64,000 nt of DNA, taken from Octopus sinensis (Eukaryota). Position numbers and translations under genes: made by a program. The notes beneath the pieces were generated by a model. The model worked only from the letters and a program-made list of their open reading frames with translations, made no database searches and had not been told where the DNA came from. Shown one piece after another: positions 3,197 to 63,777 of this stretch. How positions within the stretch are numbered: position 1 is the first letter of the stretch; every line of letters begins with the position of its first letter. The stretch lies in assembly GCF_006345805.1 (NCBI RefSeq), contig NC_043000.1:162068001-162132000 (forward strand), written 5' to 3'.

Positions 3197-4420
3197 CGTG
3201 GGTGCAAACGCTTGGTTTATCTCAAATTTTGTTCAACAAACCTATTCACAAGGCTTTGGCTGGCCTGGAGCTACAATACTTTTCTAAGGTGCCTCACAGT
3301 AGGACAGAACCCAAAACCACGTAGATTGGGGGTAAATTTCCGAGTTACACCTCCAAGCCCGAGTACACACACACACACATTTTGTCAAACGGAACTCAAA
3401 ACGTATGACATTTAATGGTTTTATAGCGATATCATTTAACAGTTGTTGCAAAGATCAAGTAAGAGCTTTTAAAATAGATGCTATGAATAGTTACGAGATT
3501 ATGTGATTTACAGTTAAGGGCAAACAAAGTTCTAGAACAATTGCATCTCCAAAAATATCACAAAAAAATGTACTGAAAATACATTGATTACAACCGTGTT
3601 TCGAATACTTGTCTCTTATCGGTTCCTCACTAATCTATCGCTACTAGATGTTTCTTGCTAAAAATCCTTAAAAAGCTACTCTTAAATTAATTATAAGGTT
3701 ATAAATTTATATGTAATTGAATTACGTTATACGTTTTCTTTTAATTATATTAATTAATTAAATGAAATCAAATGGTTACAACAAGAGAACAAAACTAGGT
3801 TATGATTGTTTCATTTCGCTGAAAGTCTTTATTTCTGAATTTAACTATATTTATTTTTATGATTCAGAGACACTTGTATTTCTATGCCCGTAGATGCTAT
3901 TAATGCTGTTCTCAATGGTATTTTATTAATTGCAAGTGTTATGAAAGCGTTATAATGTGACACAAAATTTGGTCACAGAATCAAAGCATTCGGTTTAACA
4001 ATGTTCTGAAACTGATTTTGTCTTAGTTTTATGTGCACATAAACTATTGTCCAGTGTATCTTTTCCTAACTTAAAGCCGTGGTTTGTGATCTGATGAAAA
4101 GTTGGCTTCTATTTCTTGTAGTTCGTGTGACCACACAGGAACTTTTGTTCGAAACCTAGGCCAATCGATTTACACAGAAATCACTCTACTTCCCAAGACA
4201 ATGAATGACAATGGAATTCAACTTTCTCCCTCTATCTCTCTCATGCATGCGCGCTTTCTGTTTCATTCTTCAGAGAGGTAGTTGGTACGAGTTACGACTT
4301 CAGGAGAGATAAGGTCAGCCTCATCATAGTAGGAATATGGCCTTCGTCAGAAATCAAGAATCCGAAACCTGATAAGGCGGGATTAAAAAGAGAAAAAATA
4401 AAACGAATAAAGCTACTTAC

Positions 4421-4612
4421 TTTCACAGGCAGCTGATAAATTTAAAAACATGAAGGTCGGATTTGAAGTAAGTATTTTTAACGAGCTCAAAATGGCCTTC
4501 CAACCCATCTTCAAATTTGGAGAATCAGTGGAAGCATTGTTTGGTGACCATTCTTCGTTGTTCTTCTGATGATAAACCTCAGCTTCCCGTTCTGTCCGAT
4601 ATTTAGTAGCAC
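4421..4612 (-). CDS. SLCO4A1-like: SLCO/OATP exon (intracellular loop and start of TM7)
   Basis: ctcttcAG|GT GCT...TGT GAA A|GTaagt; GATKYRTERE...KAILSSLKILTSNPTFMFLNLSAACE resembles the OATP LLxNPTF motif; 192 nt, phase 1 to 1. Downstream exons presumably lie left of the window. Confidence 0.9.
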
Positions 4613-4872
4613 CTGAAGAGAGAAAACGGTAATTTTTGTAAGAACTATCGGCAACGTATTGACACTTGGACAAAGATGATGCATAAGAATGTTCAATTGT
4701 TTGCTTGTGTGAGTATACGAGTGTGTACTTAGGTGTATACAGAGATGAACATTCATTAATAAACTGAAAATTGTAGACGTATTTTGGGGTGTACATACCC
4801 CTTCATGTGCATCTGTGCGTGACGCGTGTGTGAGTGGTCATGGAGAAGGTGCGAGTGCACTCGGTCCCAAAT

Positions 4873-11155: not shown

Positions 11156-11519
11156 TATTTCTTTACTGCTCACAAGGGGTTACGCACAGAGGGGACAAAC
11201 AAGGACAGACAAACGGATTAAGTCGATTACATCGACCCCAGTGCGTAACTTAATTTATTGACCCCGAAAGGATGAAAGGCAAAGTCGACCTCGGCGGAAT
11301 TTGAACTCAGAACGTAGCGGCAGACGAAATACCTATTTCTTTACTACCCACAAGGGGCTAAACACAGAGAGGACAAAGGACAGACAAACGGATTAAGTCG
11401 ATTATATCGACCCCAGTGTGTAACTGGTACTTATTTAATCGACCCCGAAAGGATGAAAGGCAAAGTCGACCTCGGCGGAATTTCGCCCGGCGTGCTAACG
11501 GTTCTGCCAGTTCGCCGCC
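11156..11519 (-). mobile_element. SINE family 1 dimer with internal deletion in head
   Basis: Two body units joined at gacgaaatacctatttc; head joined directly at ggaatttcgcccggcg. Confidence 0.85.
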
Positions 11520-13792: not shown

Positions 13793-14559
13793 CTGAAAAA
13801 TAAAAGAGAGAGAGAGAGGATTATCAACTTGATGAAATGATGCGGAGAAGATATATCAGTGAGATACAGTGTCATCAATTTAAATTTAAAGGTAAAATTT
13901 AACTCTTTCACAAATTACAAGCATCTGTCCAGTTTCCGAGGCTTTTTAACCGAACAAAACAAAAATCTCATCCTTATTCTATTCTGGATCTGAGGCTAAT
14001 CTAACCATACAGTTTTAAGAAATAAGTGGAAATTTTACCGATGAGTGTGTTAAATTATAAGACACAAAAAGAAAATGACTCTCCCCAGACAACAGAATAT
14101 GCTTCAACACACGAACTCATATAAAGAATCTTGCAAACCAAATCCAAAAACGAAAGAAAAAAAGACATCTCCAAAAGCATAGTGAATGCGTCGCGTTACA
14201 GTTCAGCTCCTTTAATTAAGAGTCAGACCGGAACATCTACAGCAGAAATAAACTGACAGTGGATCACAGGTTGCTACTTTACAACTTTAATCACTAACAT
14301 TTTAAAAACATTTTATTGGTCATACATCTAGTAATATTAGTAATATGTCGAATTGACTGTTTTATAGTATTTGAACGGTGATCCACACTGAGTTCATATC
14401 CCAGCGATGTTAATTTGTATATCATACCTTCAGGTTTGATATGTAGAGTTGTAGATTGGTAGAACTTTTAAGAGCTGTTGGACAAGATGCCATGCAATAT
14501 TTGTTTCGGCTCTCTGAGTTCAAATTCTGCTTAGATACCGATTACCAGAGCTAATCACA

Positions 14560-32154: not shown

Positions 32155-32754
32155 TATTTCCTTACTGCCCACAAGGGGCTAAACATAGAGGGGACAAACA
32201 ATGACAGACAAACGGATTAAGTCGATTAAAATCGACCCCAGCGCGAAACTGGTACTTTATCGACCCCGAAAGGATGAAAGGCAAAGTCGACCTCGGCGGA
32301 ATTTGAACTCACAACGTAACGACAGACGAAATACCTATTTCTTTATTACCTACAAGGGGCTAAACACAGAGGGGACAAGTAAGGACAGACATAGGTATTA
32401 AGTCGATTACATCGACCCCAGTGCGTAACTGGTACTTAATTTATCGACCCCGAAAGGATGAAAGGCAAAGTCGACCTCGGCGGAATTTGAACTCAGAACG
32501 TAACGACAGACAAAATACCTATTTCTTTATTACCCACAAGGGGCTAAACACAGAGGGGACAAACAAGGACAGACATAGGTATTAAGTCGATTACATCGAC
32601 CCCAGTGCGTAACTGGTACTTAATTTATCGACCCCGAAAGGATGAAAGGCAAAGTCGACCTCGGCGGAATTTGAACTCACAACGTAACGGCAGACGAAAT
32701 AGCGCTAAGCATTTCGCCCAGCGTGCTAACGTTTCTGCCAGCTCGTCACCTGAT
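32155..32754 (-). mobile_element. SINE family 1 trimer with single 14-bp TSD
   Basis: Three ~180-bp body units and one head; ctctacattgtata at 32141-32154 and 32755-32768. Confidence 0.92.
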
Positions 32755-38519: not shown

Positions 38520-38972
38520 AAGGCGGCGAGCTGGCAGAAACGTTAGCGCGTCGGACGAAATGCTTAGCGCTATTTCATCTGTCGGTTACGTTGTGAGTTC
38601 AGTTACATTGTGAGTTCAGTTACGTTGTGAGTTCAAATTCCGCCGAGGTCGACTTTGCCTTTCATCCTTTCGGGGTCGATAAATTAAGTACCAGTTACGC
38701 ACTGGGGTCGATGTAATCGCCTTAATACCTATGTCTGTCCTTGTTTGTCCCCCTCTGTGTTTAGCCCCTTGTGGGTAATAAAGAAATAGGTATTTCATCT
38801 GTCGTTACGTTGTGAGTTCCAATTCCGCCGAGGTCGACTTTGCCTTTCATCCCTTCAGGGTCAATAAATTAAGTACCAGTTACGCACTGGGGTCGATATA
38901 ATCGACGTAATCCATTTGTCTGTCCTTGTTTGTCCTCTCTGTGTTTAGCCCCTTGTGGGTAGTAAAAAGAAA
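38520..38972 (+). mobile_element. SINE family 1 dimer, nested in an older degenerate copy
   Basis: TSD tagtaggctttgtta (38505-38519) / tagtaagctttgtta (38973-38987); short internal triplication of gttacgttgtgagttca. Confidence 0.88.
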
Positions 38973-39431
38973 TAGTAAGCTTTGTTATATTCGTTCCAAC
39001 TCCCTGAATTGCGTGTTCAAATCCTGCCGAGATCAACTTTTTTTAAAATTTTTTATAAAATGCTAGTCCAGCAGCAGAGTAATTTTTCCTCTCCGGAAGA
39101 TCGAGCCTTTTACATTGTGTCACGCTGATTTCGTCTAAGAGTACTCATATCCGTGGAATACTCAGCCGCTTACACGATGAATTTCATGAGCAAAACTTAG
39201 GTTGATCGAACAAGAGAATCTTCATCATCGAGATCGATGAAGAATAAACAAAAACTTGGACCTATTTGCAACATCAATGAACGTTTTATTCACAGTTTCC
39301 TGAAAAAGCTCTTAGGCGCCTACGAGTATCTATGCTTCTCGTCTCCCTTCGATATTTATTAACGTATGTCCACAAGAGATATCTCAGAACAAATACCACA
39401 TTATCTGGCCAATCGACAGTGTATGTAAATT

Positions 39432-41970: not shown

Positions 41971-44526
41971 TAATATATTCAACGCCATCAACAAATATTT
42001 CAATTTTATTTGTTGAAGTGTTCTGACGAAAACAGATGTCACTATAAAATAGCTATTTTATATTTAATTGGCAGTCTTAATACAGTAAAATAATTATAAA
42101 ATAGTGAAGGAATGAGATATATATTTCACATTCGTTATGAATGGGAACAAATACAATAGAACTAACGATGGTCTGTAATGAGTAAATAGTAAGTATAAAT
42201 GTTTGAGAATTTTACGTAAAATTGTTGTTGAGTTTTAACTGCGTCTTTCTGACTTCAACTACATTTCTCATTCATATATACACATCGAAAAAGCTCTATA
42301 ACCGTAACACGATCTCAGTGGTTGGAATTAACAGCAAGTTCGTCTAATGCAGATATTACTAAACCTTATCGCACACTACAATTGAGAGACTGATTCACAA
42401 AGCATTTAATCAGTGGTACAATTCAATGGAACGCTTTGACAAAAGAAAAAAAAAAAAAGATCAGGCAGTCAGACTGTCAACTCAAACACGGTCAAAAACT
42501 TTTCTTAATACCAAATGCAACGACCTGTTTTCACCTAAGTCGCTATCAATAATGGAACTTTGGGACCAGATTTGGGTAGATCTGGCTTTATGAATATCAT
42601 AATGGTTTCTGAGAAAATAAATATACATGAAAAATGATTTGTCAGTATGTCACGAACTTGTACGGGATATTTGATTGTCTTAATTTAATCTTGTATAGTC
42701 AATTAAATTAAGACCAGTAGATACCCGGTAATCTTAACCGATTTATGAAACTAAATATGGAATAATTGAGCGCGCTAATCATCTATATGAATTGCTTCTT
42801 TATCCTAGTTTTTGACTGGATAAAAGCGATTAATTACTAACATCAATAAGGAGAGAATGGCATCTTGCTTTATTAAACCACCAACATTTCTAACAAACCC
42901 AATCTAAAAAACTACGAGTTTTACTCATTTCAAGCAACTCCCAGTAATATGAAATCGAATTCTTATTACCGCAACAAATCTAGCTTCATGTACTTTTACT
43001 CGACTATTATATTACCACTAACAGCACTACCATAACTGCCGCAATATAAAAACTGTTTTGTAGAAATAATTTGGGCATCAGCGTTTCCCTGAGACTTGTG
43101 GATCAATTGTGGATTCTTTTGGTCACCACTTATTGTCATGCCATTATAGTGCTGGCCATCTCCCACGTCATGCTGCTCTCAATCAGATCATAAAGGCCTA
43201 GACGCCGCAGACTGCCCCTTCTAGCTCAAGCCAGCGGGCTGGAGTGAAGAAACGGCAAAAAGCAGGATGACATGATTTTCCCATTCAACGGGGTAGGTGC
43301 CTTATCTGGGATGCCACACGTTACGACACTGTCTCCAACGGCAACCTGGTGTGTTCGGCTGCCAACTCAGGATTCGCTGTTCATCAAGCCAAGAAGGGCT
43401 AATAGTCAAAGTATCGGTCGCTTTCTGACAAATGGAGTCGCTTTAGCCAAATGGAGTCCTTCGATTTTCTTGGCCCGAACTGCATCTCTGCTCGCTGCTA
43501 TCCGGGAAGAGATGGCTACTATCAGCAAGTGCGAGCCCCGTGAGCTGGAGTGACTGTTCCAGTGCATCTCTCTCGCCATCCTCTGGTGCAACGCCTTTTT
43601 AGTTTTGCCTGTCGGGAACATGAGGCGAGTTGACAAGTCTTACGTCTCTTAAATAAAATGCCTTTTAGCACAATAGTCTATAATATGATGCTCATTGTGA
43701 TGGGATTAAGTTGTTGAAAGAGATCTGAAATCAGTTTTAAGACATCGGGAGGCAAAGTGAAGAGGAGGTTGTCTGAAATCACTCCACAACGACGACAACA
43801 GTTTCATTCTTAAAAAGTCTGCTGTCGAATTGAAAGTATGTTTGATTCATTGTGTGGGCGCCAACATTGATAATGAAGGGCAAATTTGAACCTGTTGACA
43901 TTTAATGTCAAAGTAGAGGAGCGCCATTCTCTATAGTTCGTTAACAATATCTACAATTTCCAGTTGTGACATACGGTAGAGGTCAGGTTTATTCGACTGT
44001 ATCGATCCCGGCAATGTAGAACGGCAAAACCAGTCCCAGTGTAATTTGAATTCAAAATGTATCAATATCGGAGCGCATTTAAGTAAGAGTAAGGTATTCT
44101 ATCGATTCAGTCATGCATTGACATTTATTAAAGGCATGCATAATAATATCGGGAAACAACCAAAAATTTGTGGGGTGAGGTACAGTGGTTTGTATCGGTT
44201 TCATAGAGATGAGATGAAAGGAAAAAGTCGACAACAGCAGGGTTTGAACTTAGATTATGAAAGGATCTAGCTAAATACACCGAAAACATTTTGTAACACT
44301 CTTTTGATTCAACCATCCTCGACCAATAGAGCATTTAAGAAAAAAGTTTTACATGGGCCCATTTTGTGATATATATAAGATAAAAGAGGAACTGAACGAT
44401 TATAAAAAGAGGAACAAAACGAAAGTTCAGAAATGTGTTAAAATGGAACATTATAAAGAACATTTTAAAGCAAAACAAAGTATAGCAACAGCAACATAAT
44501 AAATAATAATAATAATAATACTTTAC

Positions 44527-44992
44527 CTATGTAGACAGGTGCCGTCCGAACTGATAAGTTCTCATCCAGGTAAGTTACTCCGAGTGTATAAAGAGGAGAA
44601 GCACCGGCCCCGTGTAGTAACTGACCCAAAAAGAACAAGTATTTGTAGTTCGATAAGGTCTTCACTGATTCGCCCATAATACAGTGAAGAACACTAGTAC
44701 CGTTCGATAACGAAGTCTCTGTACATACATTCTGTGTGGTAACATATTTATAGTTGCCGCTGAGGAAGTGTGGCAAACTGAACATAAATGATCCGATACC
44801 CATGACAAAAACGCCGATACCTAGATAACGAGGTTTCCGACCAAGTCCTCCAAAGTAGCTAATTGGTATAAGACACACAACCGATGCTATGTCGTAGCAG
44901 CTTGCAATTGTTCCCGATTCTGTACTCGACAAGTCGTAGCGCCGTTCTATATTTGAAATGACCACATTTACAAAACCATTCACCACCATACC
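44527..44992 (-). CDS. SLCO4A1-like: SLCO/OATP organic anion transporter (SLCO4A1/4C1-like), first coding exon found in window
   Basis: Translates GMVVNGFVNVVISNIERRYDLSSTESGTIASCYDIASVVCLIPISYFGG...LGQLLHGAGASPLYTLGVTYLDEN, matching OATP N-terminal motifs (IERRYDL, SYFGG, G.TY.DEN). Acceptor ttaacAG|GGT, donor ATAG|GTaaag; 466 nt, phase 0 to 1. Confidence 0.95.
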
Positions 44993-57827: not shown

Positions 57828-58385
57828 CGGTGAGCTGGCGAAATGCTTAGCGATATTTCGTCTGCCGAAGGCTGCGAGCTGGCAGAAACGTTAGCACGCC
57901 GGACAAAATGCTAAGCGGTATTTCGTCTGCCGTTACCTTCTGAGTTCAAATTTCGCCGAGGTCAACTTTGCCTTTCATCCTTTCGGGGTCGATTAAATAA
58001 GTACCAGTTACGCACTGGGGTCGATATAATCGACTTAATCCGTTTGTCTGTCCTTGTTTGTCCTCTCTGTATTTGGCCCCTTGAGGGCGATAAAGAAATA
58101 AATGTTACTATATAACCAGTTCGCCGTATCATCCAGAACACATACTATATAATTTGAGAATTTATTATCTATCGGAAATAAAACGATGAGCTGGTAGAAA
58201 CGTTAACACGCCTGTGCAAAATGCTTAGCGGAATTTCATCCGTCTTTACTATCTGAGTTCAAATATCGCTGAAGTCGACTCTGCCTTCCAGGGTTGATAA
58301 AATAAATACCAGTTGAGCAGAGGGTGTCGGTGTAATCGACTTGCTCATCGGCCTCGAAATTTCTGGCGTTGTGCCAAAACTTGAA
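57828..58385 (+). mobile_element. Two SINE family 1 copies (57828-58100 and 58185-58385)
   Basis: Heads gagctggcagaaacgttagcacgcc and the family core in both; separated by a duplicated flank. Confidence 0.82.
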
Positions 58386-58622
58386 GCCAATATTTCTCAA
58401 AAATTAGTCTTTTGCTACTTCTACTACTGACAGGAAAAACGAAGTCAAGGAACAGAAAGTAAGAATGTAAGCTTCATAAAAGAGATAGAATTAATTGAAA
58501 CAAACTTAAAAGCTAGAAATCAAATACATTATAGGGGGCGGCTTTGTGATAAAATGCTTGCTTCCCAACCACATGGTTCCGGGTTGTCATTTCTGCACTG
58601 GTAAAGTGTTATATTTGATATA

Positions 58623-58854
58623 TATTTCTTTATTGCCCACAAGGGGCTAAACATAAAGGGGACAAACAAGGACAGACAAACGGATTAAGTCGATTACATC
58701 GAGCCCAGTGCGAAACTGGTACTTTATTTATCGGCCCCGAAAGGATGAAAGGCAAAGTCGACCTCAGAGGAATTTGAACTCAGAACGTAAACGACAGAGG
58801 AAATATCACTAAGCATTTCGCCTGGAGCGCTACCGGTCTGCCAGCTCGCCGTCT
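58623..58854 (-). mobile_element. SINE family 1 monomer with ~21-bp TSD
   Basis: taaagtgttatatttgatata at 58602-58622 and 58855-58875. Confidence 0.9.
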
Positions 58855-60495: not shown

Positions 60496-60555
<60 letters not shown>

Positions 60556-60556
<1 letters not shown>

Positions 60557-60847
60557 TGTTGTGCCTGGGGAGAGTCGTTTTCTTTTTGTGCCTTATAATT
60601 TAACACACTCACCGGTAAATTTTCCCCTTATTTCTTATTTTTATTTTCCTAAAATTTTCGTTGCGTCTTGCAACCTTTTCAATAGTCTTGCAAACTTTCA
60701 ATAGTCTTGAGAGTCAAGACTATTGAAAAGGTTGCCAGACGCAACGAAAATTTAAGAAAATAAAAATAAGAAATAAGGGGAAAATTTACCGGTGAGTGTG
60801 TTAAATTATAAGGCACAAAAAGAAAACGACTCTCCCCAGGCACAACA

Positions 60848-60848
<1 letters not shown>
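60556..60848. repeat. 293-bp near-perfect palindrome in a (TA)n tract; Penelope-like inverted terminal repeat or foldback element
   Basis: ctgttgtgcctggggagagtc...tcttga-gag-tcaaga...gactctccccaggcacaacag; few mismatches plus a ~19-bp duplication in the left arm. Confidence 0.9.
60648..60685 (-). ncRNA. Putative minimal hammerhead ribozyme, U3-A8 variant
   Basis: CTA-TTGAAAA-G-GTTGC-aagac-GCAAC-GAAA-ATTT-TAG; mirror copy on + at 60720-60756. Confidence 0.5.
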
Positions 60849-60900
<52 letters not shown>

Positions 60901-61526
60901 AAGATATATACACGTACACACACAGAGGCGCCCACAACATCAGATGTTAAAAGTCTAAATGTTCGGTTTAAGAAAGTCTTTTTGAAAGTTGTGTTGTAGA
61001 CTTATTGCGACTCCTAAATCCTAAATCAGTAACTGATTTATTTGTTCTCTTACAGATAAAAGAAACAACATTTACTTATCAGATGTTACGCGACTCAGAT
61101 TAAATTACAAAATATACTTTTACAGCACGTGTAATTTCGCTTTTACGATCATGGCTGATGTTGATTTTTATCATCAACACCGACACAAACGTAAAAGTAC
61201 GTGCTACCTTTAAGACAGTATTCAGTGTATGTATGGCGGGGGGAAGGGGTATAACACTCTGCGTTTGAAAATGATGCTATACTGCAGCCAATGAGCCCAT
61301 AAACAAAAATCAAACAGCGGCTACCTGAAAACTGAAAAGGAGGACATCCACCCGATAACACTTTTTCGAATTAATAGAAAATCCGCAAATTCCATTTCAT
61401 ACTCTACAACGGAAATATTAAATTATAAGGCACAAAAATAAAATGACTCTCCCCAGACACAACAGAATATGCTTCAACACACGAACCTCATATAAACAAT
61501 CTTGCAAAACAAATCCTAAGACGAAA

Positions 61527-61550
61527 TATATATGTGTGTATATATATATC

Positions 61551-62494: not shown

Positions 62495-62600
62495 CTGTGT
62501 GTGTATATATATATATATATCTGGTGTATATATATATATATATATCTGTGTGTATATATATATATATATATCTGTGTGTGTATAATATATATATATATAT
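61527..62600. repeat. Compound (TA)n-TCTGTG satellite
   Basis: Repeating (TA)n + tctgtgtg; continues at 63662-63920. Confidence 0.96.
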
Positions 62601-63661
62601 TGTGCTTATTGTCCTGTATCTCTCTTTTTTTTGCTTGTCTTGTTCCTTGGTTTGTGTCTATGTGTTTCGTCTCTCTATGTGTTCGACGTCTTTTTGGTGT
62701 CCTGTACACATATATGCGTGTATATGTACATGTAGAGGTAGGTACGTACATATATGTTTATATATATGCATATGTTCTATTTTATTAACATATTATACGA
62801 CTAAACGCACGCACCCTAATAAGTAAGATTGTTCTGTTTATCAAGTTAGCCTTGATATTAACTCTCACGCGACTCTGCATCTTTCTTTCTTTCTCTCTCT
62901 CCCATTCCCTTTTTCGTCTTTTTTTCCCTCACTTAACTTGTCTCTTCCTCTCTCTCTCTCATTCTTCATTCTCTCTCTCCCTTTCACCATTCTTCATGGT
63001 CTCCTCGTACCATTCCCCTTCTTCTTTCTCTTCCTCTTGCTCCTCCTCCCCCATTCCCGTCGTCCATCTGCGACGATACTTCCGTCGTAACTGCTATCCT
63101 GTCTTTTCTCGCCCGCCTTGTAAGGCTACTGGTCGACATATTTTCTCTCTCTCGTCGTCCACGATAATCCAGCGTTTGCAATACTTTTTTCGTCTGGCGT
63201 TAACAGCCCTTCTTATCTTGTTCTCCTTGTCCTGTCTCTCACTGTTATATATTTATTTTTCCACTGTTTATATATATATTCTTTACTGTTTATATGTTTG
63301 TACTGTCGTTACCGTCTTGCTTTTTTTTTTACCCCTCTGCGAAAAGATCTCAGAATTTTAATTGATTTGCTTTTCGCGGGAAGGAAGTTTTCTTCGAAGT
63401 ATACGTCTCGCTTTTATCCTTCGAAACGTTTAGTAGATGAAACCTTAGCGACTGAAGAAGGGGATTTTTCGTTGTGCTTATTGTCCTGTATCTCTCTTTT
63501 TTTTGCTTGTCTTGTTCCTTGGTTTGTGTCTATGTGTTTCGTCTCTCTATGTGTTCGACGTCTTTTTGGTGTCCTGTACACATATATGCGTGTATATGTA
63601 CATGTAGAGGTAGGTACGTACATATATGTTTATATATATGCATATGTTCTATTTTATTAAC
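62601..63661. repeat. Element bounded by ~190-bp identical direct repeats, embedded in TA satellite
   Basis: tgtgcttattgtcctg...ctattttattaacat at about 62601-62790 and 63473-63662. Confidence 0.88.
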
Positions 63662-63777
63662 ATATATATATATATATATATATCTGTGTGTGTAATATAT
63701 ATATATATATATCTGTGTGTGTATATATATATATATATATCTGTGTGTATATATATATATATATATATGTATATATC

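What the first reader, a model, noticed from the sequence alone, without database searches (positions are those of the whole stretch)
60556..60848. TA-embedded palindrome carrying two outward-facing hammerhead-like ribozymes with a compensatory U3-A8 core
Seen: each arm of the 293-bp palindrome reads outward as CTA-TTGAAAA-G-GTTGC(aagac/cagac)GCAAC-GAAA-ATTT-TAG (left arm, minus 60685-60648; the right arm, + 60720-60756, ends AAG). This aligns position for position with a minimal type I hammerhead: stem I, C3UGANG8A9 core, one extra base, a perfect 5-bp stem II, GAAA, a palindromic 4-nt stem III (AATT), then NUH. Known: C3-G8 is a tertiary Watson-Crick pair, and here both positions change together (U3-A8). 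Penelope-like elements carry minimal hammerheads with palindromic stem III that act as dimers, and often have inverted pLTRs. Inference: this is a non-autonomous, microsatellite-associated Penelope/retrozyme-like foldback element that standard CUGANGA searches would miss. Caveat: stem I is only 3 bp.
Basis: partly seen in the sequence, partly recalled or inferred. Interest (0 to 1): 0.75.

Follow-up and report, generated by a model that had tools for sequence, protein, structure and literature searches.

The report
Head-to-head Penelope ends with U3-A8 hammerhead
The palindrome is two back-to-back copies of the end of a very common protein-coding Penelope-type jumping gene, likely left by a single insertion, and its hammerhead-shaped RNA motif carries a core base swap already described in other animals; self-cutting is predicted for the family but untested, and unlikely at this folded-back copy.

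Summary
The palindrome and the motif are real. Each arm is the terminal repeat (pLTR) of an abundant Penelope-like retrotransposon (RT plus C-terminal GIY-YIG, Neptune/Nematis-type linker): 27 of 30 endonuclease loci carry the arm downstream, and it reads on into the ORF start. It is not a MITE, a retrozyme or a self-spreading foldback: the same junction occurs at 24 loci with unequal arms and variable target duplications. The hammerhead reading holds: nine related families keep the motif behind the endonuclease with compensatory changes in stems I, II, III and at 3-8 (U-A, C-G, G-C). U3-A8 in Penelope hammerheads and opposite-strand pairs are in print (PMC4209133). Only the left arm is intact, and the two motifs lie on opposite strands, so a transcript folds into one hairpin, not a dimer. 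Side results: 32 of 97 copies start 39-45 nt upstream of the predicted cut, a likely transcription start, so most templates look uncut; an old subfamily has a U3-G8 wobble core, order unresolved. The scan has noted all this before on other DNA. Ordinary member of a known kind; cleavage untested.

The parts
60496..60555 (.). (TA)n run, left flank; target site, duplication cannot be resolved
60556..60709 (-). Inverted (left) pLTR copy, ends at the short 3' end site (no tail); includes the 19-bp slip duplication
60649..60685 (-). Complete minimal type I hammerhead motif: stem I CUA/UAG, core UUGAAAA (U3 at 60682, A8 at 60677), extra G, 5-bp stem II, GAAA, AAUU stem III palindrome, predicted cut between 60652 and 60651
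60665..60709 (.). 19-bp tandem duplication near the centre (2.3 copies), likely template slippage at a repeated CAAGAC (inferred)
60697..60727 (.). Head-to-head junction; the same 31-mer occurs at 24 loci; the sense arm begins at 60710, the family's 5' hot spot (likely transcription start, inferred)
60710..60848 (+). Sense (right) pLTR copy from the 5' hot spot to the short 3' end site; the ORF start codon of the family reads ACG here (60826-60828) and in the left arm
60720..60756 (+). Damaged hammerhead motif: A.A mismatch at the stem I pair next to the cut site, loop II CAGAC
60849..60898 (.). (TA)n run, right flank
61418..61530 (+). Second, 5'-truncated copy of the same pLTR with the tail (no hammerhead), followed by a TA-rich array
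14016..14155 (+). Third, 5'-truncated copy of the same pLTR with the tail (no hammerhead)

Best explanation
The palindrome is a head-to-head pair of terminal repeats (pLTRs) of an abundant RT plus GIY-YIG Penelope-like retrotransposon, likely made in one insertion event, and each arm carries the family's U3-A8 hammerhead motif, which is predicted to cut RNA weakly as a dimer or with protein help in the parent element but would be folded away at this locus. Shown: the arm is the 3' end of the ORF-bearing element and also its 5' leader (it reads into the ORF); copies have two preferred 3' ends about 55-60 nt apart, a sharp 5' hot spot 39-45 nt upstream of the predicted cut, and variable 7-13 bp target duplications; the motif covaries between families. 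Inferred: RNA starts at the hot spot; the element's protein nicks AT-rich DNA and primes reverse transcription from both target ends at internal start sites in the RNA leader (as PAc does in vitro); the two short cDNAs run to the RNA 5' end and are joined through the small AGTC-AA-GACT palindrome there; the result is a dead stub.
For: Family size: 3292 exact 32-mers of the arm end, 1793 of the motif pattern, reversed-pattern controls 0. 27 of 30 endonuclease-selected loci carry the arm in sense about 440-1170 nt behind the endonuclease match. ORF has PTDKSG, GSMDVISLYP, YSRYVDDI, linker CTNDNCMVC and GIY-YIG (Pfam PF01541 28.8 bits over cut-off 22.6). L142 reads from the arm into the ORF N-terminus. 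L130 and L132 have the ORF flanked by outward-facing arms, the inverted layout described in PMC8557442. Of 24 loci with the same junction only this one was parsed with two equal near-full arms; several pair a tailed with an untailed arm and show 7-12 bp flank duplications. The window's arms are 98.6% alike against at most 93.1% to 12 other junction loci. Nine families: 3-8 paired in 9 of 9 (U-A 3, C-G 5, G-C 1); stem I pairs 1-3 in 9 of 9; stem II pairs 1-3 and 5 in 9 of 9, pair 4 in 8 of 9; G10.1-C11.1 invariant; 15.2-16.2 paired in 9 of 9; 0 of 1000 shuffles for each of 7 regions tested. Protein tree (C,(B,A)) 100/99 support, with G-C, C-G, U-A. PMC11167929: PAc cuts and extends both strands, starts RT internally, HHR is protein-assisted and not needed for insertion.
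Against: No cleavage data. Stem I is 3 bp (fourth pair absent in 4 of 9 families), shorter than the 4-5 bp in PMC4209133; the AAUU dimer helix alone is unstable (+2.2 kcal/mol); triplet UUU. The nine-family table was parsed by hand to fit the fold, and 4 of the 10 metagenome loci with sequence behind the endonuclease gave no motif (L295, L296, L300, L303; two of them short or cut). Within the family the motif decays like neutral DNA (15 of 56 copies intact, most changes at CpG), so copies give no evidence of selection. Arms of one locus are on average hardly more alike than arms of different loci (0.930 vs 0.919, 13 loci, some mis-parsed). 10 of 97 5' ends lie within -4..+3 of the predicted cut (3.8 expected, p about 0.005), only 3 within one base; this may be alignment blur in A/T-rich sequence or a minority of cut templates. 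The transcription start is inferred from copy ends only. No intact ORF of this family was found (longest open frame seen 454 aa).
Confidence: 0.82

Rival explanations
1. A non-autonomous foldback element (MITE-like or retrozyme-like) that spreads as a palindromic unit using Penelope or Tc1/mariner enzymes.
For: The same central 31-mer recurs at 24 loci; this copy is symmetric and TA-flanked; about 69 of 97 arms have an inverted partner within 800 nt by a rough motif test.
Against: Junction-sharing loci differ in arm length and 3' end and show 7-12 bp flank duplications, not TA; 24 is small against more than 3000 arm ends; the arm is the end of an ORF-bearing element; the junction is explained by a local palindrome at the 5' hot spot.
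Confidence: 0.05
2. The motif is a hammerhead by descent but no longer cuts in this family; it persists as a protein-binding, promoter or folding element of the pLTR.
For: Most templates appear uncut: 63 of 97 copies reach 5 nt or more past the predicted cut and 32 stop at the upstream hot spot. An old subfamily spread with a U3-G8 wobble (28 of 31 hits G8) and sister family B with C at position 9. In PAc, catalytic mutants did not affect insertion.
Against: 3-8 stays Watson-Crick in 9 of 9 families with three different pairs, which points to selection on the active fold; U3-A8 ribozymes were active in vitro according to PMC3088659.
Confidence: 0.3
3. The motif is a chance hairpin between A-rich tracts.
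For: AT-rich sequence, 3-bp stem I, no Rfam hammerhead match.
Against: Same motif at the same place in related families with different letters; 0 of 1000 shuffles.
Confidence: 0.03
4. The palindrome at this locus is an assembly artefact.
For: Arms 98.6% alike between long TA runs; no contig bridges the whole locus.
Against: Arms differ by substitutions, an indel and a 19-bp duplication; the flanks beyond the TA runs are not mirror images; two short contigs of run X19 match 60696-60734 across the junction without a difference (family level, under the 31-base bridging rule); 23 other loci have the same junction.
Confidence: 0.03

Closest known systems
U3-A8 minimal hammerheads in pLTRs of Schistosoma mansoni Cercyon PLEs (Cervera and De la Pena 2014, PMC4209133; parts 1-2 of 4 read)
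   Same: U3-A8 core, extra nucleotide between 9 and 10.1, G10.1-C11.1, palindromic 15.2-16.2, no real stem III, mostly single truncated copies, pairs on opposite strands 100-700 bp apart.
   Different: Here stem II is 5 bp (7-8 there) and stem I 3 bp (4-5 there); different host and PLE family; U3-A8 is the family's main state; the two motifs are only about 35 bp apart.
C-terminal EN+ Penelope-like elements of Neptune/Nematis type (Craig et al. 2021, PMC8557442; passages read)
   Same: RT followed by CX2-5CxxC linker and GIY-YIG with CCHH; 5' truncation, inverted 5'-truncated partner, optional tail, some (TA)n targets.
   Different: Tail is about 55-60 nt, not 30-40; DKG motif reads DKS; Neptune versus Nematis was not decided (no reference sequences on hand).
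PAc, Poseidon element of Anolis carolinensis (PMC11167929; passages and part 2 of the main text read)
   Same: pLTR overlaps the ORF start; two 3' end sites bounding a tail inside the ORF start; hammerhead near the 5' end; templates appear uncut.
   Different: PAc has C3-G8, lacks the Zn-finger linker, and its ORF starts within stem II; here the ATG is about 75 nt behind the predicted cut.
Natural U3-A8 hammerheads (Perreault et al. 2011, PMC3088659; passages read)
   Same: Natural covariation of C3-G8 to U3-A8, stated there to be active in vitro.
   Different: Those are not described in the passages read as PLE dimers; activity does not transfer automatically to a 3-bp stem I motif.

Membership tests
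C-terminal EN+ Penelope-like element | Single ORF with PLE-type RT | tested here: met
   Motifs PTDKSG, GSMDVISLYP, QGAAIG, YSRYVDDI read in L130-L132; all copies seen are broken by frameshifts; Pfam RVT_1 did not hit the split frames; motif labels partly recalled
C-terminal EN+ Penelope-like element | C-terminal GIY-YIG endonuclease with CCHH motif | tested here: met
   PF01541 28.8 bits, cut-off 22.6; two Cys between the GIY and YIG equivalents and downstream His residues; degraded copy L066 gave no Pfam hit
Neptune/Nematis type | CX2-5CxxC linker before the endonuclease | tested here: met
   CTNDNCMVC; definition from PMC8557442
Neptune versus Nematis clade | Placement in an RT tree with named references | not tested
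   No named reference sequences were available to the tree
C-terminal EN+ Penelope-like element | pLTR with direct or inverted 5'-truncated partner, optional tail, variable target duplication | tested here: met
Minimal type I hammerhead of PLEs | Core N3 U G A N N8 A, G12 A A A15.1, U16.1 H17 with paired 3-8 | tested here: met
   Left arm; 91 of the first 100 of 1793 pattern hits read UUGAAAA (hand tally)
Minimal type I hammerhead of PLEs | Extra nucleotide before 10.1, G10.1-C11.1, palindromic stem III | tested here: met
Minimal type I hammerhead of PLEs | Compensatory changes in stems across families | tested here: met
   Nine families, hand-parsed; none expected or seen among copies of one family
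Minimal type I hammerhead of PLEs | Stem I of 4-5 bp | tested here: not met
   3 bp on the left arm, broken on the right; the D. virilis variant has 2 bp, so this lowers but does not exclude
Hammerhead ribozyme | Site-specific self-cleavage | not testable with these tools
   Only the indirect 5'-end map: weak bump at the predicted site
Tc1/mariner MITE | Uniform length, fixed TIR ends, TA duplication (recalled definition) | tested here: not met
   Unequal arms, 7-13 bp duplications, 5' truncation series
Animal non-LTR retrozyme | ORF-less head-to-tail units with one hammerhead each (from abstracts and recall) | tested here: not met
   The arm is colinear with the end of an ORF-bearing element in 27 of 30 loci and is arranged head to head; tandem arrays were not counted genome-wide

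The most novel reading that the evidence does not exclude
The thousands of dead copies record how a Penelope element works in vivo: their 5' ends mark a capped transcription start 44 nt upstream of a hammerhead that is mostly left uncut, head-to-head stubs come from priming at both target ends, and dated subfamilies preserve a stepwise path of a tertiary catalytic pair, C3-G8 to U3-G8 to U3-A8, with the wobble stage still able to transpose.
Probability: 0.35. Interest if true: 0.5.

Novelty: new member of a known kind. Interest (0 to 1): 0.27.

Why it matters
Mainly as annotation: such palindromes are by-products of Penelope insertion, not a new element, and CUGANGA-only searches miss a family with at least 1793 motif copies in this genome. 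What PLE hammerheads do in vivo is still open (PMC8557442, PMC11167929). Three sister families with U-A, C-G and G-C at 3-8, plus a U-G subfamily, give a ready natural series for cleavage assays, and the 5'-end map predicts where the RNA starts and that most templates are uncut.

Tried and rejected
Rfam scan: no hammerhead family. Pfam on degraded L066/L061 frames: nothing. Intron idea (GTGAGT donor and CAG acceptors in the pLTR): no contig joint with that skip in four runs; the one 52-nt skip has TG..AG ends; rejected as unsupported, contigs cannot show absence. Cap-derived G: 45 of the first 100 of 477 hits have G just before the hot spot (hand tally; 22% expected), but in most of the clean insertions among 30 loci the G also belongs to the target duplication: inconclusive. 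Order of U3-G8 and U3-A8: divergence of old groups overlaps (0.095-0.114 vs 0.098) and the endonuclease tree leaves the base unresolved with only two G8 rows, one very long: unresolved. C3-G8 copies inside the family (3 of 70; 2 of 31) may be single mutations. MAFFT misaligned 3 of 9 motifs, so no covariance model or pair count was run on it; L299 was mis-registered and corrected. In one search L134 is labelled by its 3' pLTR. Lunse et al. (PMC5785218), on PLE hammerhead variants cleaving as dimers, is not held; only its citation was seen, and it and the unseen supplements of PMC4209133 and PMC8557442 may already list cephalopod or U3-G8 variants. Search by sequence in earlier findings: nothing. 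Paper searches: hammerhead+U3-A8 gave 1 paper; Penelope-like+hammerhead+octopus and Penelope+Neptune+octopus+retrotransposon gave only PMC8557442; no search was completed for natural U3-G8.

Full report
Observation. The stretch 60556-60848 is a 293-bp palindrome (94% identical to its reverse complement) between two TA runs. The left arm, read outward, has the stated hammerhead layout; the right arm has an A.A mismatch at the stem I pair next to the predicted cut. The centre has a 19-bp duplication. A strict descriptor finds only the left arm in the whole window, in 0 of 1000 shuffles of the element and in none of 30 shuffled windows; the descriptor was written after seeing the motif. Rfam has no hammerhead match here.

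The arm is a high-copy repeat. The window lies in G000 (2.72 Gb). A DNA search gave 1515 first-look candidates, 40 scored; exact patterns gave 3292 hits for the arm's 3' part and 1793 for the motif, with 0 in the reversed-pattern controls. The closest named homologue of the element's protein is an Octopus bimaculoides protein at 60%, so the host is likely a cephalopod; I did not trace the assembly.

It is the pLTR of a Penelope-like element. Walking upstream led through a CA-rich UTR to GIY-YIG and RT frames. Of 30 loci picked by the endonuclease, 27 have the arm in sense about 440-1170 nt downstream. Near-full copies (L130-L132, L134) show PLE RT motifs, the linker CTNDNCMVC and a GIY-YIG domain (Pfam above cut-off), which is the Neptune/Nematis layout in PMC8557442. 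L142 continues from the arm through the tail into the ORF N-terminus, so the arm is also the element's 5' leader, as in PAc. No intact ORF of this family was seen.

How the palindrome arose. In 97 arms picked only by their 3' part (90 loci on contig C1; both arms of a locus counted), 3' ends cluster at two sites about 55-60 nt apart and 5' ends pile up 39-45 nt upstream of the predicted cut: 32 of 97, against 3.3 expected from the background rate; of 42 arms that get that far, 32 stop there. 477 copies begin there behind a non-native base. Clean single insertions have 10-13 bp target duplications (for example L266, L270, L271, L275). The window's right arm begins exactly at this site. The same junction 31-mer occurs at 24 loci, with unequal arms; several pair a tailed with an untailed arm, in either orientation, which a simple fold-back of one cDNA cannot give when the inverted arm is the longer (some loci were mis-parsed by the local alignment). 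PAc cuts and extends both target strands and starts reverse transcription at internal sites that bound the tail (PMC11167929). I infer priming from both target ends, short cDNAs running to the RNA's 5' end, and joining through the AGTC-AA-GACT palindrome there. D. virilis Penelope has an internal promoter in its pLTR (PMC2377424, passages), which fits reading the hot spot as the transcription start; no RNA data test it. 17 of 97 arms end in TA runs, so microsatellite targeting is partial.

Is it a hammerhead? Copies of one family cannot show selection: 91 of the first 100 hits are UUGAAAA, 4 have C3 alone, 1 G8 alone, 4 vary at N7, none has C3 with G8 (hand tally); 15 of 56 copies are intact and changes peak at CpG. 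The test is between families. Two sister families in G000 and six of ten usable metagenome relatives at 40-47% protein identity carry a motif behind the endonuclease. Across these nine, 3-8 is paired in all (U-A in A, L294, L297; C-G in B, L298, L299, L301, L302; G-C in C), the first three stem I pairs, four of five stem II pairs and 15.2-16.2 are paired in all with 3-5 different pair types (G10.1-C11.1 is invariant), and stem III is palindromic or nearly so. Each of 7 regions tested scored 0 of 1000 shuffles. The protein tree gives (C,(B,A)) with strong support, and the U-A rows are not one group, so U3-A8 probably arose more than once; the deep forks are weak. The parse was by hand and four relatives gave no motif. 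I take the motif as a true homologue of PLE minimal hammerheads. Cleavage is untested; published minimal PLE hammerheads cut weakly and only as dimers or with extended stem III (PMC4209133), and PAc's needs its protein.

At this locus it should be silent. The two motifs lie on opposite strands, so one transcript has one sense motif and its complement and folds into a single hairpin (-228 kcal/mol, z -35). A dimer in cis is not possible.

An older subfamily has U3-G8. A pattern for the older pLTR gave 73 hits; of 70 fetched, 53 were U-A, 12 U-G, 3 C-G, 2 other, and G8 is linked to loop AAGAA (9 of 15 vs 2 of 55, p 3.5e-6, best of many columns tested) and to a second site. A pattern fixed on that loop gave 31 hits, 28 with G8, 25 of them U-G (hand tally). 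So a wobble-core source element did spread. Whether it came before U3-A8 is unresolved.

Comparison with what is known. PMC4209133 reports U3-A8 minimal hammerheads in Schistosoma PLEs (about 1300 hits), the extra base, palindromic stem III and opposite-strand pairs. PMC3088659 reports natural U3-A8 and says such ribozymes are active in vitro. Inverted 5'-truncated partners and tails are standard for PLEs. I found no paper on this cephalopod family, but could not read Lunse et al. or supplements. Earlier notes of this scan reached the same readings on other DNA; the three-pair series was visible to me before I tested it, while the 5' hot spot and the U-G subfamily were found here before I saw those notes.

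Verdict. Real feature, correctly recognised in kind, but an ordinary insertion by-product of a known class of element with a published core variant. New member of a known kind; interest 0.27.

Noticed in passing
L315:3658-3705, also L230-L238 and L313-L335: Sister family B, young with open frames over 1000 aa, has C3-G8 but C at the normally invariant position 9 in all parsed copies; metagenome relative L294 also has C9. A good source of intact protein for assays.
   Followed up: partly
L306:4158-4207: Sister family C has a G3-C8 core and a 7-bp stem I.
   Followed up: partly
L299:4331-4378: Relative with swapped U15.1-A16.1 and palindromic UAGCUA stem III; L298 has G at position 4.
   Followed up: no
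window 44465-44989 and 4413-4796, minus strand: Frames that look like exons of an SLCO/OATP organic anion transporter (recognised from recall, not searched); the palindrome lies upstream of them or in a 5' intron.
   Followed up: no
window 11156-11483, 32155-32701, 38619-38975, 58000-58723: Tandem and inverted copies of a 175-185 bp SINE-like repeat.
   Followed up: no
L062:3363-7399: A two-ORF LINE with a 949-aa open APE-RT frame inserted into a copy of this Penelope family within a segmental duplication.
   Followed up: no
L007: Five head-to-tail 55-bp repeats of the motif's 5' half on the inverted arm, probably repeated template slippage like the window's 19-bp duplication.
   Followed up: no
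window 62600-62793 and 63472-63665: A 194-bp exact direct repeat, 872 bp apart, next to TA-rich arrays.
   Followed up: no
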